In this document: in pieces, positions 31,801 through 37,800 of the stretch
Numbering within the stretch: position 1 is the stretch's first letter
Layout: every line of letters starts with the position of its first letter
Virus record (IMG/VR): IMGVR_UViG_2531839523_000012
Coordinates: 1-40,154 of that record
Strand: one strand, 5' to 3'
Length of the DNA: 40,154 nt
Origin: a virus
Taxonomy: Duplodnaviria > Heunggongvirae > Uroviricota > Caudoviricetes
Program-made: the position numbers

Positions 31801-34800
31801 GAAAACTGTCCGCGAACCAGATTGAAGGCGATCTCGTTAAAACAGTGGGTAAAGCTTTCCCCCGGGACTCCCGTGCACCGGAACGGTGGCCATCAGGGAC
31901 CATTACCGTCAGGATTTATGACGATCAGCCGTTTGGCCGGCAGATTGTTATTCCGGCGGTGGCATTCAGCGGCGCTAAGCATGAGAGAGAGCATACTGAT
32001 ATTTACTCCTCATGCCGTCTGATAGTGCGGAAAAACGGTGCTGAAATTTATAACCGTACCGCGCTGGATAATACGCTGATTTACAGTGGCGTTATTGATA
32101 TGCCTGCCGGTCACGGTCACATGACGCTGGAGTTTTCGGTGTCAGCATGGCTGGTAAATAACTGGTATCCCACAGCAAGTATCAGCGATTTGCTGGTTGT
32201 GGTGATGAAGAAAGCCACCGCAGGCATCAGTATCAGCTGAATTTTATAGCCCCAATACGGGCGTCAGAAATGACGCCTTTTTTATTGCAGAAAAGCGAGA
32301 GGTAATTATGCGTAAATTATGTGCTGTTATTCTGTCCGCAGTAGTCTGGCTGGTTGCCGCTGGTACGCCAGCGAGCGCAGCAGAGCATCAGTCCACACTA
32401 AGCGCCGGGTATCTTCAGACCCATACTGATATGCCAGGCAGTGATGACCTGAAGGGCATTAACGTGAAATACCGTTATGAATTTACGGACACGCTGGCAT
32501 GAAGATTCAGTGCGTAACCGCTGGTTCAGCATGATGGCGGGGCCATCTGTACGCGTGAATGAATGGTTCAGTGCTTATGCGATGGCAGGCGTGGCTTACA
32601 GCCGTGTTTCGACGTTCTCCGGGGATTATCTCCGCGTAACTGACAACAAGGGGAAAACGCACGATGTGCTGACCGGAAGTGATGACGATCGCCACAGCAA
32701 CACGTCTCTGGCGTGGGGAGCTGGCGTGCAGTTTAACCCGACCGAATCCGTGGCCATTGATATTGCTTATGAAGGCTCCGGCAGTGGCGACTGGCGCACT
32801 GACGGTTTCATCGTGGGTGTCGGTTATAAGTTCTGATTAGCCAGGTAACACAGTGTTATGACAGCCCGCCGGTTCAGGCGGGCTTTTTTGTGGAGTGGAT
32901 ATGGCAGCAGTAAAAATCTCAGGTGTGCTGAAAGATGGTGCGGGAAAACCAATACAGAACTGCACTATTCAACTGAAGGCAAAGCGTAACAGCACCACGG
33001 TACTGGTGAACACGGTGGCCTCTGAAAATCCTGATGAAGCCGGGCGTTACAGTATGGACGTTGAGTATGGTCAGTATAGCGTTATCCTGCTGGTTGAAGG
33101 TTTTCCGCCTTCACATGCCGGAACCATTACCGTCTATGAAGGTTCCAGTCCGGGGACGCTGAATGATTTTCTCGGTGCCATGACGGAAGATGATGTCATG
33201 CCGGAGGCATTGCGCCGTTTTCAGGAAATGGTGGAAGAAGCGGCACGCAACGCCGAAGCCGCCTCTCAGAGCGCAGCGGCGGCAAAGAAATCCGAAACTG
33301 CAGCGGCATCATCGAAGAACGCGGCGAAAACCTCAGAAACGAATGCAGCTAACAGCGCACAGGTGGCAGCGGCCTCGCAGACTGCATCGGCAAACTCCGC
33401 AACAGCAGCTAAAAAATCAGAAACCAACGCGAAAAATAGCGAGACAGCCGCAAAGACGAGCGAAACCAACGCAAAGTCCAGCCAGACGGCAGCGAAGACC
33501 AGCGAAACGAATGCTAAAGCCAGTGAAACTGCAGCAAAAAACAGCCAGGTTGCAGCAGCCCAAAGCGAGAGCGCGGCAGCCGGTTCTGCGACTTCAGCAG
33601 CTGGATCAGCAACTGCTGCGGCTAACAGCCAGAAAGCTGCGAAGACGAGTGAAACTAACGCAAAGTCCAGCCAGACGGCAGCGAAGACCAGCGAAACGAA
33701 TGCCAAAGCCAGTGAAACTGCAGCGGCGAACTCGGCGCAAGCATCGGCAGCAAGCCAGACAGCAGCTAAAGCAAGTGAGGATGCAGCCAGAGAGTATGCA
33801 AGCCAGGCAGCAGAGCCGTATAAATATGTCTTACAGCCACTGCCTGATGTGTGGATACCGTTTAACGATTCACTGGATATGCTTGCTGGCTTTTCGCCTG
33901 GTTATAAGCAAATAACTGTAGGTGATGATGTTATTAAAATGCCATCCGATAAGGTTGTTAGCTTCAAACGCGCATCAGGTGCAACATACATTAATAAATC
34001 AGGTGTATTAACCGTTGCTGAAGTTGACGAACCGCGATTTGAACGAGAAGGTTTGCTGATTGAAGGACAGAGAACAAACTATTTCAGAAATTCAAATACA
34101 CCAGAAGCATGGAATAACACGGGTAGTGTGTCTGTTGAGTCGTTCGACAGTGATAAGGGGTTTAACTATGGAAGGATAACTGTTATTAATGAAAATCCGA
34201 CAGCACAAGGATATCAGGCAATTGCTGTAAACACGAATGATGCTTACACCTGCCCGGCAGGTTCTTATACGACGATATCGTGTCTGACGAAAAGTGATAA
34301 TTCCTGGTGTCGTGCAAGGTTCGGAAAAATGTCTGATAATGGTGCGTTTGTTTTTCATTCAGATGCAGCTCTGGATCCTGTTACGGGAAATGTTGTTCAT
34401 GGAAATAATGTGACGGTGACGGCAGAAAGAGTCGGTGAATGGTGGTTGTTTACCGCCACTCTTTTTGCAGATGCGGAAATGATAATCAGCTCAAGATTTG
34501 AAATCCTGGCGATGCCTGGAATCAGTATTATCCCCAATGGCTCTACGTTAGATATTGCGATGCCTCAGGCGGAGATTGGGTCGTACAGGACGTCATTTAT
34601 CATTACTGAAGGGGCTCCTGGCACTCGCTCCAGCGACATGGTGACAATACCTGTAAGAAACAATATTCACCGATTACCATTCAGTGCTCTTGTTGAAGTT
34701 AATAAAAACTGGGATATCCCTCCCAGCAAATCACCATTAATCTTTAATGTTAAAGATTATCAGGAAAATGGTCTGTTCACGCATGGATTCCGTGGTAATA

Positions 34801-37800
34801 ATTTCTCTGATGCCGGTTCTCCTTTTATTTCTATGGGAGGGTGTAATAAATATGTGGCAACAACCCAGAGGAAAATCATTTCAGGCTTCCGTTGTGGCGC
34901 TGATGGAGATGTTCAGGCCGTATGTAATGGTGAATTATCTGTTGCGGCAAAAACAACATGGACTTCAATTGTTCCACGGGCAGTATTGCGAATTGGAGGG
35001 CAGGGCACTAATGGGGAGTATCATCTTTTTGGTCATATCCGTAATCTGCGTATCTGGCATAAAGAATTAACTGATGCGCAAATGGGGGAGAGTATTAAAT
35101 GAAAGATTTAACACTCAAATTTGCAGACAGGGCCGACTTTTCGGCCTTTATGGAGAGTATTGGCTATTATGATGACGAGTCGATGCAGGATGATATTCTT
35201 ATTGACGTGATAGGTAACGTGTACAAAGAAACCGGAGAACTGACTGAAGATGGCGAACCGGTATGTGTTAAGGAAGACGGATATTTTGTAAACGTGCGCA
35301 TCATTAATGATGCAAAAAAATCGTCAATATTCGATAAATACGCGGTTGTTGTTGAGCATCAACTTCGTGGCTGGATGTGAGGGAGACAAATGGCTACATC
35401 GACAGTAATTCCAGGAGATATCACCACGCTAAAGGGAGATGTCAGTAAAACTAAGGAAGATATTTCCTCAATTAACGGAAAAGTATCAACGCTTCAGACT
35501 GATATGACCAGTACAAAGCAGGATATCAGTACCAGATACACAAAAACTGAAGTTGATAATAAGCTGAAAAACAAACTGGAAGTGAATGCTCTGGAAAGCG
35601 GTAATTATGGTGGAGATTTTTACCCGCTGACTGGTCGTGAAGCATTTTATTTATGGAATTTGGGCACGACTACAGCGGCGGCAAACCTTTATCTTAATCC
35701 TGACCCTGCAATTTCGTCTGTACTGCGGTCAACATCGTCTATTCGCTATAAACATTCAGTAGAGACGATAGATTCAGAGCACGCCGATCTCATTTTCAAG
35801 ATGCGCCCTGTGTGGTACAGGTCGCAATGCGAAAATGACAGGCGCGATTGGGGATTCTATGGATTGATTGCCGAGGAAGTAGGAGAAATTGCCCCTCAGT
35901 TTGTTCACTGGCGACCAGCTAACGAAGATGATGCACCGGAAACCATTTCCAGCAATGGCCTTGTTGCCGAAGGTGTAATGTACGAACGTCTGGTTGTTCC
36001 ACTGATTCACCATATCCAGAAACTGACTGAAAGAGTTGATGAACTTGAGTCAGAATTAAAGTTGTTATCAACTTCCTGAAGCGATATCGGATAAAGGAGG
36101 AGTAATGGATATAAGCCCCTTACTTCATGCGCTTTGTGCTGTGGCTGCGCAGATACTGGTTGGTCTTTTTACCGGAAACTGGGCTTACGGAGCGATAGCT
36201 GGTTGTACGTTCTTCATTGCGCGTGAACACACCCAGGCAGAATATCGCTGGATTGAAATGTTCGGACATGGCAAGCGTATGAATATGCCGTGGTGGGGCG
36301 GTTTTGATCCGCGCGTGTGGGATGTGGCAAGCCTGATGGATTTTGCTGTGCCGGTGGTGGCGTGTCTGCTGATCTGGCTGTTGATCAGTTAAATATAAAA
36401 AGCCGCAGTAACTTGCCATGGCAGGATACTGCGGCTGGTTTGTGAGTTTAAATAGTGTGTTTATTGCGGTATATTTAAAGGACTTAATGGATTACATATC
36501 TATGATATTCCTGAAATATCCTCTTCAAGCTCTTTTACTGATTTCGCAATTTTAAATTTAAACTTCCTCTCTATTTCACTATTGCTAAGTTTTTTTTCCT
36601 TCTCTTTACCTATCCACATAGAAACAAGTTCTCGTTTCTGAGATATATGTAAATTATCAAAGTTAGGTATGTATTTAAAAGCCTCCGCTCTACCTCTGCG
36701 GAGTTCATAGAAAGTTTTAATCAAAGACTTTGGTTTTATTTCTGATGAAAGGCCGAATCGGCGGATAAGATTATTGATAGTATGATTAACAGAGCGAAGT
36801 TGAGCTGTTGAGGTTATTTGTGAGAAGTACGATACCCATCCCAATCGTTTACCTTCAAACACACATCCCGTAATTCTGAGATTTAGTTTCCACTGACAAT
36901 ATGCAACAGCTCGTTCTTTATCACGCTTACTTTTAGCTTGTAGTAGAGCGTGCCTGTATGCAGTAAAAATCCTTGCTAAAGATGACTCAAATCTAAGAAT
37001 GCTCTCATGTTTTATCAATAATTCTCGATTTTCTATGTGGTATCCCAAAAAGTTAAAACTTTCATCCAAGCTGCCTACCTTGGATTTTGAGTTCTCTTCA
37101 TTTAATGGATGTGGGTTTAAATTTAATGATTGAAGCTTATCAATGATATGAGAAGCTATTTTTGTTGCTTGATATTTTGGTGTTAAAATAAGAATGTCAT
37201 CAACGTATCGCATGTACCATATGTCATGCATTTTATTGATTTCATCATCAAAATTAGATAGTGATATTTCAGCTAAAATATTTGATATCGCTAATCCCTG
37301 AGGTACTCCTCTGGTATTATTCGGGATACCTTTGCTTCCTGTTGCTCCACTTACAGTAGGCACGATTAATGATGATGTTATTAACTGTCTAATTTCTTTT
37401 TTTCTAATTTTATTTCTTATTGCATTAATTATCAATTTATGTTCAATTGAAGGATAGAAACTTTTAAGATCTATTTTTGCATATTCAGCATAAAGACTGC
37501 TGTTTAATGCTTCTTTCAATGAGTCAATTACTGTATGTGGTAGTTTTAATCTGGAGTTAGGATATATTTCCGTAAGGCATTCACAGAGAGCTCTAAGAGT
37601 AATTCTGTCCCTAGCAGTTGGTATGGAAATCTGTCTGGGTGTAGAGTTAGCGCCTTTAGATATTAATTTTTCTTTATATGCTGTAAATTTGTAATTGCCA
37701 GAGTTAACCTTTTCAAAAATGAAAGTGATCTCATTTTTTATTGTCAAATCAAGTTTTGATGGGCGAATCCGATCTATGCCAATCGCTCCTGATTCTTTGA

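What the first reader, a model, noticed from the sequence alone, without database searches (positions are those of the whole stretch)
32901..36079. Mosaic side tail fibre with recombinogenic repeats and a downstream fibre gene carrying an auto-chaperone domain
The stf gene has a lambda-like N-terminus, a shaft encoded by near-identical 65-95-bp direct repeats, and a C-terminal ~400 aa unlike lambda, indicating receptor-specificity swapping. In place of tfa there is a 93-aa acidic protein and a 229-aa coiled-coil protein ending in a chaperone-like motif (SSIRYK...GLIAEEVGEIAPQFV). The repeats could mediate in-frame length variation.
Basis: partly seen in the sequence, partly recalled or inferred. 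Interest (0 to 1): 0.45.

Follow-up and report, generated by a model that had tools for sequence, protein, structure and literature searches.

The report
Two-fibre side tail fibre cassette
This is an ordinary but neatly mosaic side-tail-fibre operon of a lambda-like E. coli prophage, and the same cassette circulates among four groups of coliphages: a long fibre with a sugar-lectin-like tip, a small unknown partner protein and a short second fibre with a self-cleaving folding domain.

Summary
It has a 27-heptad Ala/Ser coiled-coil shaft containing a 68-nt near-identical direct repeat. Its 430-aa C-terminus is unrelated to lambda Stf/Tfa and is modelled as tandem ConA/LamG-like lectin domains. 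Downstream lie a 93-aa acidic protein of unknown fold and a 229-aa protein. The 229-aa protein has an N-terminal coiled coil and a Peptidase_S74 intramolecular-chaperone domain, with the Ser116/Lys121 dyad invariant in 30 homologues.

Shaft length does vary in frame among relatives. The window carries a rare 147-nt (7-heptad) deletion compared with the modal form.

The 229-aa gene is under purifying selection. It has an alternative 346-aa allele sharing only about 30 N-terminal residues, and it reassorts independently of the Stf tip. The likeliest reading is therefore a second, anchor-docked fibre, not a gene remnant or a tip-specific chaperone.

The same three-gene cassette occurs in Drexlerviridae, Seuratvirus and T5-like phages and in 719 of 5426 complete E. 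coli genomes. Databases already annotate it, so it is a new member of a known kind, of modest interest. The roles of the 93-aa protein and the short fibre remain untested.

The parts
32863..32884 (+). Terminator-like hairpin plus T-run between lom and stf. Phage 21 has an annotated terminator at the same position.
32901..35102 (+). stf, the side tail fibre gene (733 aa counted from the ATG).
   Evidence: ORF. An identical 733-aa protein, P0180, is found in E. coli 2845350. PHROG 1419 'tail protein', score 1120 bits.
32907..33296 (+). Lambda-type N-terminal tail-attachment domain (Pfam phage_tail_N).
   Evidence: Pfam E 8e-66. Residues 3-111 are 85% identical to lambda orf401.
33237..33824 (+). 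Shaft of about 27 Ala/Ser-core heptads (aa 113-308), encoded by 21/42-nt periodic DNA.
   Evidence: Shaft length varies in heptad steps among relatives.
33468..33535 (+). Direct repeat, copy 1 (68 nt, one mismatch to copy 2, 47 nt exact).
33657..33724 (+). Direct repeat, copy 2 (offset 189 nt, equal to 9 heptads). The 147-nt deletion junction relative to the modal allele lies at 33716/33717.
33825..34067 (+). Conserved junction segment (aa 309-389, PLPDVWIPFNDSLDM ... EPRFE..GLLIEG.RTN). It is nearly invariant in 37 fibres but modelled with low confidence as a monomer. It is a candidate trimeric neck or docking platform; this is an inference.
   Evidence: Invariant columns. pLDDT below 50 for model residues 1-89.
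34068..34580 (+). First ConA/LamG/pentraxin-like jelly-roll domain (aa 390-560). It matches NCBIfam GTA_spike_fiber.
34668..35060 (+). Second beta-sandwich domain (aa 590-720), ending in the LamG-type strand HLFGHIRNLRIWHKELTD.
   Evidence: pLDDT 70-88. Homologues carry Pfam Laminin_G_3. Tandem-domain matches.
34081..34990 (+). Allele-specific variable core of the Stf tip. It has no nucleotide similarity to other lambdoid stf alleles, while both flanks are conserved.
   Evidence: Mosaic map.
35099..35380 (+). 93-aa acidic protein (p93). Its ATG overlaps the stf stop codon (ATGA). Its fold and function are unknown. It always accompanies this type of fibre tip.
   Evidence: PHROG 1361, E 1e-46. 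Orthologues follow the fibre gene in phage 21, KarlJaspers, KurtStettler and HMD-P4.
35390..36079 (+). 229-aa short second-fibre gene (p229), preceded by a GGGAG Shine-Dalgarno sequence. Here it is truncated by 5 aa through a CGA-to-TGA change relative to its 234-aa relatives.
   Evidence: dN/dS is 0.17-0.25.
35390..35485 (+). Conserved N-terminal module (aa 1-32, MATSTVIPGDITTLKGDVSK...). It is shared with otherwise unrelated 333-510-aa second-fibre alleles and is the presumed docking anchor.
35411..35584 (+). Coiled-coil stalk (aa 8-65). Its repeat number varies among homologues.
35735..36076 (+). Peptidase_S74 intramolecular chaperone domain (aa 116-229). The predicted scissile bond is T115/S116, with the S116 codon at 35735-35737 and the K121 codon at 35750-35752.
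   Evidence: Pfam match. DT57C LtfA (8hqz_d) with E 2.3e-7 by single sequence and 1.9e-8 by profile. S116 and K121 are invariant in 30 homologues. Coordinates checked. The mechanism is taken from T5 pb1 (PMC4690869).
36105..36392 (+). 95-aa hydrophobic protein (p95), preceded by an AAGGAGG Shine-Dalgarno sequence. It is the conserved 3' flank of the cassette in lambdoid phages.
   Evidence: 88-96% amino-acid identity in five phages. PHROG 1443. The phage 21 record calls it a 'putative membrane protein'.
36394..36444 (+). Strong hairpin followed by a U-rich tract, which probably marks the end of the operon.
   Evidence: Folding energy -27.1 kcal/mol, z = -4.45. Sequence.

Best explanation
The region is the distal end of the late operon of a lambda-like E. 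coli prophage. It encodes a two-fibre side-tail-fibre module in the order stf, p93, p229, p95.

Stf attaches to the tail through a lambda-type N-terminal domain. It extends as a trimeric Ala/Ser-core heptad coiled coil and ends in tandem ConA/LamG-like lectin domains, which most likely bind a surface glycan rather than OmpC as lambda's gp37-like tip does.

p93 is translationally coupled to stf and is co-inherited with the fibre's C-terminal end. It is most likely a dedicated assembly factor or small structural partner of that tip.

p229 is a short second fibre. Its C-terminal S74 domain should drive trimerisation and then cleave itself off at T115/S116. That would leave a mature protein of about 115 aa, made of a coiled coil plus a small tip. 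This protein would dock through its conserved roughly 30-aa N-terminus onto the primary fibre or its partner, as LtfB docks on LtfA in phage DT57C.

Specificity evolves by homologous recombination at conserved flanks, which swaps two independent cassettes: the lectin core and the second-fibre body. Unequal recombination or slippage between the shaft repeats changes fibre length by whole heptads.

Shown here: the domain identities, the mosaic boundaries, the length variants, purifying selection and the distribution of the cassette. Inferred: glycan binding, self-cleavage, docking and the role of p93.
For: Domain calls:
- phage_tail_N, E 8e-66, and Peptidase_S74 above its cut-off.
- GTA_spike_fiber, E 3.4e-17.

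No relation to lambda Stf C-terminus or Tfa.

S74 catalytic features: Ser116 and Lys121 are invariant in 30 homologues. The T-S scissile context and the Ser-x4-Lys spacing match T5 pb1 T1263-S1264/K1269.

p229 is a real gene:
- It has its own Shine-Dalgarno sequence and ATG.
- dN/dS is 0.17-0.25 against lambdoid alleles; against KarlJaspers pN is 0.24 while pS is saturated.
- It is present with p93 in 719 of 5426 complete E. coli genomes and in plaque-forming phages IdasGreatGrand, PhiR49_1 and PhiR55_1.

p229 behaves as a second fibre rather than a tip-specific chaperone:
- In the IMG/VR loci carrying p93 where the downstream gene could be read, it starts with the same N-terminus. It is either the 234-aa type or a 346-aa type whose body is unrelated but which also has S74 (E 7e-14).
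- Both types occur with several different Stf tip alleles.
- Second-fibre genes of 333 and 510 aa with the same N-terminus occur in a T5-like phage and a Seuratvirus.

Precedent: the branched LtfA/LtfB fibres, where a short conserved N-terminus marks the docking partner (PMC4728585; PMC10713586).

Cassette mobility: fibre tip, p93 and second fibre are 41-43%, 41-54% and 45-60% identical, in the same gene order, in Drexlerviridae, Queuovirinae and Demerecviridae.

Mosaic boundaries are mapped.

Length variants: the window is 147 nt shorter than 74 genomes with the same tip. The deletion junction lies in imperfect repeats. In one search, 57 of 60 shafts share one heptad register.
Against: Nothing here shows directly that p229 or p93 is in the virion, that p229 is cleaved, or where it docks.

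The region upstream of the cleavage site (aa 66-115) is conserved, about 75% identical between lambdoid and T1-like phages, rather than hypervariable. That is atypical for a receptor-binding tip. It fits a structural or assembly role, or a conserved receptor.

Phage 21 has the same type of Stf and p92 but no second-fibre gene, so the second fibre is dispensable.

The BASEL authors annotate the orthologue as 'putative lateral tail fiber chaperone'.

The p93 model failed (pLDDT 39.5), so its role is a guess.

In this particular prophage J carries frameshifts and lom a deletion, and p229 lacks its last 5 residues. The module may therefore not be in use here.
Confidence: 0.6

Rival explanations
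1. p229 is a trans-acting assembly chaperone for the primary fibre, not a structural fibre. This would be a stand-alone descendant of the intramolecular chaperone, released or discarded after helping Stf trimerise.
For: The orthologues are annotated 'putative lateral tail fiber chaperone' or 'chaperone of endosialidase'. Half of the protein is the S74 domain. The mature part would be only about 115 aa and is conserved rather than hypervariable. The gene is always adjacent to the fibre gene.
Against: Known S74 domains act in cis on their own upstream trimer (PMC4690869). Alleles of 333-510 aa have sizeable bodies and share only the N-terminal 30 aa. p229 stays 93-100% identical next to Stf tips that are only about 44% identical to each other, so it does not co-vary with its supposed client. 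Phage 21 makes this type of Stf without it.
Confidence: 0.2
2. p229 is a non-functional remnant: the orphaned C-terminus of a long single-polypeptide fibre, left behind when the present stf-p93 block recombined in.
For: p229 aligns end to end with positions 1147-1384 of a 1385-position PHROG profile (phrog_3299), and the Stf shaft aligns with positions 215-404 of the same profile.
Against: The gene has its own start codon and a strong Shine-Dalgarno sequence. dN/dS is 0.17-0.25. The gene is kept at the same place in four phage lineages, including virulent phages, and in 719 E. coli genomes.
Confidence: 0.03
3. The shaft repeats form a contingency locus: a programmed, high-frequency mechanism that varies fibre length to tune host range.
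For: In-frame variants exist that differ by 2, 7 or 9 heptads, and their junctions lie in repeats.
Against: The repeat units are long (21-189 nt) and imperfect. About 85% of the IMG/VR relatives where the shaft span could be measured, and 59 of the 60 best complete-genome matches to this tip allele (the exception is an IS1-interrupted copy), keep one modal length. No recombinase or diversity-generating element is linked to the repeats. The pattern fits occasional RecA- or Red-mediated unequal exchange.
Confidence: 0.05
4. p93 is the functional analogue of lambda Tfa, that is, a tip-specific fibre assembly chaperone. The alternative is that p93 is a hinge or adaptor carrying the second fibre.
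For: p93 occupies the tfa position. It is translationally coupled to stf. It is always present with this fibre tip, even where the second fibre is absent, as in phage 21. Its divergence tracks that of the adjacent Stf C-terminal end.
Against: p93 shows no sequence or profile similarity to Tfa. No structure could be obtained. The co-variation may reflect physical linkage only.
Confidence: 0.45

Closest known systems
Ur-lambda Stf plus Tfa (lambda orf401/orf314, orf194)
   Same: Same genome position after J and lom. Same N-terminal attachment domain (85% identity over aa 3-111). Same kind of Ala/Ser heptad shaft.
   Different: The C-terminal roughly 430 aa are not gp37-like. There is no Tfa. Instead the tip is a lectin-like tandem jelly roll, followed by p93 and an S74 fibre.
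Phage 21 side tail fibre locus (OL657228: CPT_21_22 to CPT_21_24) and the E. coli prophage family that NCBI's PGAP annotation pipeline names 'prophage tail fiber N-terminal / phage head spike fiber domain-containing protein'
   Same: Same Stf architecture. A p92 orthologue is 53% identical. The p97 membrane protein is 96% identical. Locus L090 combines the phage 21 shaft with the tip found in this window.
   Different: Phage 21 lacks the second-fibre gene and has a shorter shaft (span 160 aa against 216 aa here).
Lateral tail fibre cassette of Drexlerviridae (KarlJaspers bas06_0037 to bas06_0035), Seuratvirus KurtStettler (bas22_0022 to bas22_0024) and Tequintavirus HMD-P4
   Same: Same three genes in the same order. 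Fibre tip 41-43% identical over about 490-680 aa. Small protein 41-54% identical. Second fibre has the same N-terminus and an S74 domain.
   Different: The N-terminal attachment domain of the primary fibre follows the host phage lineage. The second-fibre body ranges from 225 to 510 aa. There is no p95 gene.
T5 pb1 and DT57C LtfA/LtfB L-shaped tail fibres
   Same: C-terminal auto-cleaving intramolecular chaperone with a Ser/Lys dyad (8hqz_d, E 2e-8). 'YTKTEVD' coiled-coil repeats. A two-protein fibre in which the second protein docks through a short conserved N-terminus.
   Different: pb1 and LtfA are over 1000 aa and carry the chaperone domain on the primary fibre. Here the primary fibre has none, and the S74-bearing protein is tiny.
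K1F endosialidase C-terminal chaperone (founder of Pfam Peptidase_S74)
   Same: Same Pfam family and the same catalytic motif spacing.
   Different: There is no enzymatic beta-helix or beta-propeller body upstream of the chaperone domain.
Rhodobacter capsulatus gene transfer agent (GTA) head spike fibre domain (NCBIfam NF048003) and Pbunavirus baseplate proteins (Pa193 gp46, E217)
   Different: The structural context differs: head spike or myovirus baseplate there, siphovirus side fibre here.

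Membership tests
Lambda-type side tail fibre (Stf) | N-terminal tail-attachment domain (Pfam PF08400), encoded after J and lom. | tested here: met
   Pfam E 8e-66. 85% identity to lambda orf401. Gene order.
Lambda-type side tail fibre (Stf) | gp37-like C-terminal receptor-binding region that depends on a Tfa chaperone. | tested here: not met
   No similarity to orf314 or Tfa. hhalign of the p93 family against Tfa gives probability 0.1%. The fold is a ConA/LamG-like jelly roll.
Phage 21 / 'head spike fiber domain' Stf family (PHROG 1419) | Conserved junction (PLPDVWIPFNDSLDM...), lectin-like tip and C-terminal HLFGH.RN.RIWHK.L motif, followed by a p93-like gene. 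| tested here: met
   PHROG 1419, 1120 bits. Invariant columns in 37 homologues. Alignment with phage 21. p92 is 53% identical.
Peptidase_S74 intramolecular chaperone (IMC) domain | Profile match above the curated threshold. | tested here: met
   27.5 bits against a cut-off of 22, residues 116-172. PDB 8hqz_d with E 2.3e-7 by single sequence and 1.9e-8 by profile.
Peptidase_S74 intramolecular chaperone (IMC) domain | Catalytic Ser and Lys five residues apart at the start of the domain, with Thr-Ser as the scissile bond. | tested here: met
   T115-S116...K121. S116 and K121 are invariant in 30 homologues. Compare T5 T1263-S1264/K1269.
Peptidase_S74 intramolecular chaperone (IMC) domain | Autoproteolytic release after trimer folding. 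| not testable with these tools
   Needs expression of wild-type and S116A protein, followed by SDS-PAGE or mass spectrometry.
Peptidase_S74 intramolecular chaperone (IMC) domain | A trimeric beta-structure (triple beta-helix or interdigitated domain) immediately upstream, acting as the chaperone's client. | tested here: inconclusive
   Only about 50 residues (66-115) lie between the coiled coil and the cleavage site.
Branched two-protein lateral fibre (DT57C LtfA/LtfB, phiEco32 gp14/gp15) | The second fibre protein has a short conserved N-terminal docking segment and a swappable body. | tested here: met
   An N-terminal 27-48 aa is shared by alleles of 229, 333, 346 and 510 aa whose bodies are unrelated.
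Branched two-protein lateral fibre (DT57C LtfA/LtfB, phiEco32 gp14/gp15) | Physical attachment of the second fibre to the first. | not testable with these tools
   Needs multimer modelling, pull-down experiments or cryo-EM.
Branched two-protein lateral fibre (DT57C LtfA/LtfB, phiEco32 gp14/gp15) | Sequence homology of the docking segments to LtfB or gp15. | tested here: not met
   tblastn with p229 residues 1-45 returned no DT57C-type LtfB or phiEco32 hit among the 59 records matched at E up to 0.01. The resemblance is therefore one of architecture only.

The most novel reading that the evidence does not exclude
The fibre-tip, p93 and short-S74-fibre trio may be a self-contained, horizontally mobile 'branched fibre kit'. 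In this reading the 93-aa protein is a new kind of hinge or adaptor (or a chaperone unrelated to Tfa). The conserved 30-aa N-terminus of the second fibre would be a universal plug that lets lambdoid, T1-like, Seuratvirus and T5-like phages mount interchangeable second receptor-binding modules on a lectin-tipped side fibre.
Probability: 0.3. Interest if true: 0.5.

Novelty: new member of a known kind. Interest (0 to 1): 0.27.

Why it matters
Side tail fibres set the first step of host recognition for lambda-like particles, and they are being re-engineered for DNA delivery and phage therapy.

Knowing the exact swap boundaries should give practical design rules for chimeric fibres. Those boundaries are the lectin core at about 34081-34990 and the second-fibre body at about 35433-36090. 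It also helps to know that the shaft tolerates changes of whole heptads, and that a conserved 30-aa N-terminal plug accompanies interchangeable S74 fibres.

The biology itself is expected: mosaic fibres, an intramolecular chaperone domain and repeat-driven indels. The only open questions are what the 93-aa protein and the very short S74 fibre actually do.

Tried and rejected
- AF2 of p93 with a 21-sequence alignment gave pLDDT 39.5, which is unusable, so no fold search was run on it.
- A profile of the p93 family against PDB sequences gave only chance-level hits, the best being a telomerase p19 protein at E 0.09.
- Pfam, NCBIfam and PADLOC gave nothing for p93 or p95.
- The exhaustive search of protein cluster representatives with p93 found only 50 representatives. 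Apart from three weak local matches to very long repetitive proteins, they are stand-alone proteins of about 150 aa or less, with no informative fusions.
- hhalign of the p93 family against lambda Tfa gave probability 0.1%.
- A profile of p229 homologues against PDB added no structure beyond DT57C LtfA.
- Literature searches found no experimental work on this cassette. 'lateral tail fiber chaperone' returned no papers, and the BASEL papers and the T1 cryo-EM paper (done on a fibreless laboratory T1) do not address it.
- The idea that p229 is a gene remnant was considered and rejected on the basis of selection and conservation.
- The alternative-frame ORFs inside the repeat region (33190-33915 on the + strand, 33266-33706 on the - strand) were treated as by-products of low-complexity repeats, like lambda orf206b.

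Full report
**Setting.** The window ends with the tail genes of a lambda-like prophage: K, I, J, lom, then the finding. Four tightly packed genes lie on the + strand:
- stf (32901-35102);
- a 93-aa ORF (p93, 35099-35380), whose ATG overlaps the stf stop codon;
- a 229-aa ORF (p229, 35390-36079), behind a GGGAG Shine-Dalgarno sequence;
- a 95-aa hydrophobic ORF (p95, 36105-36392), behind AAGGAGG.

These genes are closed by a strong hairpin (-27.1 kcal/mol, z = -4.45). A terminator-like hairpin precedes stf, as is annotated in phage 21. A protein identical to this Stf (P0180, 733 aa) is on record from E. coli 2845350.

**Checking the observation.**
- The Stf N-terminus matches Pfam phage_tail_N (E 8e-66) and is 85% identical to lambda orf401 over residues 3-111.
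- Residues 113-308 form 27 heptads with Ala and Ser at the core positions. They are encoded by DNA with 21/42-nt periodicity.
- Within this region one pair of repeats is nearly identical: 33468-33535 and 33657-33724. The pair is 68 nt long with one mismatch, 47 nt of it exact, at an offset of 189 nt, equal to 9 heptads.
- Beyond about residue 300 there is no similarity to lambda orf314 or Tfa.
- p93 has pI 4.31.
- p229 carries SSIRYK at residues 116-121, which is the start of a Peptidase_S74 match above Pfam's threshold.

**What the Stf tip is.**
- NCBIfam places residues about 388-579 in the 'phage head spike fiber' domain (E 3.4e-17).
- An AF2 model of residues 301-733 was built on 37 homologues. 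It has mean pLDDT 71, with values above 90 for model residues 90-260.
- Some homologues carry Pfam Laminin_G_3.
- The tip is therefore a ConA/LamG-type lectin-like module, not a gp37-like fibre tip. Glycan binding is an inference from the fold.
- The about 90 residues between shaft and lectin domains are almost invariant across the family. They are modelled poorly as a monomer, as expected for an intertwined trimeric neck or a partner-binding platform. That reading is also an inference.

**What p229 is.**
- Its C-terminal half is an S74 intramolecular chaperone. By sequence, the only solved relative is DT57C LtfA, PDB 8hqz_d (E 2.3e-7 with the single sequence, 1.9e-8 with a profile).
- S116 and K121 are invariant in 30 homologues down to 25% identity.
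- The T115-S116...K121 arrangement mirrors T5 pb1 T1263-S1264...K1269, where Ser1264 is the scissile residue and is activated by Lys1269 (PMC4690869).
- The N-terminal 65 residues have coiled-coil periodicity. They resemble the P22 gp26 needle and the LtfA 'YTKTEVD' repeats.
- If cleavage occurs, the mature protein would be only about 115 aa.

**Is p229 a real gene?** Yes.
- dN/dS is 0.17-0.25 against lambdoid alleles with dS 0.10-0.15. Against the T1-like phage KarlJaspers, synonymous sites are saturated (pS 0.84) while pN is 0.24.
- p93 plus p229 occur together at 94% or higher nucleotide identity in 719 of 5426 complete E. coli genomes, including B-strain derivatives.
- They also occur in the plaque-forming phages IdasGreatGrand, PhiR49_1 and PhiR55_1.
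- This rules out the 'orphaned fragment' idea that the PHROG 3299 alignment suggests.

**Fibre or chaperone?** Several comparisons favour a second fibre.
- In phage 2G7b the gene at the same position encodes 345 aa. It shares only residues 1-32 with p229 (66% identity). Its body is unrelated and it has its own S74 domain (E 7e-14).
- Among 80 IMG/VR loci retrieved with the p93 profile, 77 contained a recognisable p93. Wherever the downstream gene could be read, it began with this N-terminus. It was either the 234-aa type or the 346-aa type.
- Both types are found next to several different Stf tip alleles, with tip lengths of 421, 429-432 and 437-439 aa. p229 itself stays 93-100% identical next to tips that are only about 44% identical to the one in this window. 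A chaperone specialised for the tip would be expected to co-vary with it.
- A tblastn search with the first 45 residues also found second-fibre genes of 333 aa in the T5-like phage HMD-P4 and 510 aa in the Seuratvirus KurtStettler. Both have S74 domains (E about 1e-14).
- A conserved short N-terminus on interchangeable bodies is the signature used to infer docking of LtfB on LtfA, and of phiEco32 gp15 on gp14, in branched fibres (PMC4728585; PMC10713586).
- I therefore favour a short, anchor-docked second fibre.

There are arguments on the other side.
- The about 50 residues before the cleavage site are conserved rather than hypervariable.
- Phage 21 lacks the gene.
- The BASEL annotators call the orthologue a putative chaperone.
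- I give the trans-chaperone reading about 0.2.

**p93.**
- p93 has no Pfam, NCBIfam or PADLOC match.
- It shows no relation to lambda Tfa (hhalign probability 0.1%) and has no PDB relative. The AF2 model is unusable (pLDDT 39.5).
- Its family is small: 50 cluster representatives, which, apart from three weak local matches to very long repetitive proteins, are stand-alone proteins of about 150 aa or less.
- It always follows this kind of fibre tip, usually with overlapping stop and start codons. This holds in phage 21 (53% identity), KarlJaspers (54%), KurtStettler (43%) and HMD-P4 (41%).
- The likeliest role is a dedicated assembly factor or small structural partner of the tip. This remains a guess.

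**A mobile cassette.** Fibre tip, p93 and second fibre occur in the same order in four siphovirus lineages:
- lambdoid temperate phages;
- Drexlerviridae (tip 43% identical over 516 aa);
- Queuovirinae (42% over 491 aa);
- Tequintavirus (41% over 680 aa, including heptad shaft).

In each lineage the N-terminal attachment domain of the primary fibre matches the recipient phage.

Within lambdoid phages a nucleotide-level map shows:
- conserved lom, stf N-terminus, shaft and junction, up to about 34080;
- an allele-specific core at about 34081-34990;
- a conserved block made of the stf 3' end, p93 and the first about 45 nt of the second-fibre gene (34990-35433);
- a second variable segment at 35433-36090;
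- a conserved p95 gene (88-96% amino-acid identity).

Two specificity cassettes can therefore be exchanged separately by homologous recombination at conserved flanks. This matches what has been shown experimentally for lambda picking up stf sequences from defective prophages (PMC3945230, listed).

**Repeat-mediated length variation.**
- The same tip allele (95-100% identical over the tip) is attached to shafts giving proteins of 677, 718, 733, 755 and 782 aa.
- In 60 relatives the span from the N-domain to the junction takes the values 160, 195, 202, 209, 216 and 265 aa, all in one heptad register. There are three exceptions: 221, 231 and 238.
- In the IMG/VR loci the modal span is 265 aa, with rare variants of 224, 251 and 328. 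The 328 variant equals the mode plus 63 aa, a duplication of the 189-nt unit.
- Of the 60 best complete-genome matches to this tip allele (74 genomes hold it at 80% coverage or more), 59 are exactly 147 nt longer than the window. The exception is a copy interrupted by IS1.
- The deletion junction in the window, at 33716/33717, lies between two imperfect copies of ...AAAGCCAG(T/C)GA(A/G)ACTGC(A/G)GCGGCGAA....
- IdasGreatGrand lacks one 189-nt unit.
The variants are infrequent, and nothing suggests a programmed mechanism.

**State of this copy.**
- Relative to a close genome, the J gene of the window has ten single-base deletions clustered in 29652-29790. lom lacks about 62 nt.
- p229 has a CGA-to-TGA change that removes its last five residues.
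- The clustering of single-base gaps looks like poor sequence quality, but real decay cannot be excluded. The module may therefore not be functional in this lysogen.

**Verdict.** It is, however, a common and already annotated type of locus. PGAP names the proteins 'prophage tail fiber N-terminal domain-containing', 'phage head spike fiber domain-containing' and 'tail fiber domain-containing'. BASEL names them 'lateral tail fiber' and 'putative lateral tail fiber chaperone'. Three points go beyond the annotations:
- the two-cassette mosaic map;
- the evidence that the S74 gene behaves as an independently swappable second fibre with a conserved N-terminal plug;
- the heptad-quantised length variants.

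Interest is modest (0.27). Novelty: a new member of a known kind.

Noticed in passing
window 36500-38399, minus strand: A reverse transcriptase (36500-37876) matches PADLOC RT_UG17 (RT unknown group 17, filed under defence-associated RTs, DRT) over its full length (E 3.6e-158). It overlaps by 29 nt with a SLATT_5 two-transmembrane protein (37848-38399; RT-associated SLATT model RTasSLATT, E 7.9e-57). This is a candidate DRT (UG17 + SLATT) anti-phage pair. It sits in the variable accessory-gene slot just downstream of the fibre operon, where relatives carry DinI plus integrase or sitABCD.
   Followed up: partly
window 38958-39847, plus strand: An HTH protein (capH-like, E 3.6e-10) is followed by a metallopeptidase-like protein (capP-like, E 7.7e-11). 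This is a CapH/CapP-type regulator pair, usually found next to defence operons.
   Followed up: no
window 29652-29790 (gene J) and about 32489-32497 (lom): J is split into two ORFs by ten clustered single-base deletions relative to NZ_OZ501607.1. lom lacks about 62 nt. This is either low-quality draft sequence or a decaying prophage.
   Followed up: partly
window 36074-36079: p229 ends five codons early (TGA where relatives have CGA...LLSTS* against ...LLSTSRSDIG*), so it is 229 aa rather than the usual 234 aa.
   Followed up: yes
window 36105-36392: A 95-aa hydrophobic protein (PHROG 1443; no Pfam match) is 88-96% identical in all lambdoid relatives, whichever fibre alleles precede it. It is absent from the T1-like, Seuratvirus and T5-like versions of the cassette. 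Its function is unknown. It serves as the conserved 3' recombination flank.
   Followed up: partly
window 33190-33915 (+) and 33266-33706 (-): Long alternative-frame ORFs of 241 and 146 aa lie inside the shaft repeats. They are low-complexity by-products of the repeat, comparable to lambda's annotated orf206b on the opposite strand of orf401.
   Followed up: no
NZ_CP156813.1 (hit H123), stf homologue: In E. coli strain PKF8 the same stf allele is interrupted by an IS1B element: the match spans 3126 nt instead of 2349 nt.
   Followed up: no
L090 (GCA_026615255.1) and L003 (phage 21): A phage-21-like prophage carrying sitABCD has the short phage 21 shaft fused to the tip allele of this window, plus p93 and a 234-aa S74 fibre. 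The laboratory phage 21 lacks the S74 gene cleanly, with only 12 nt between p92 and p97.
   Followed up: partly
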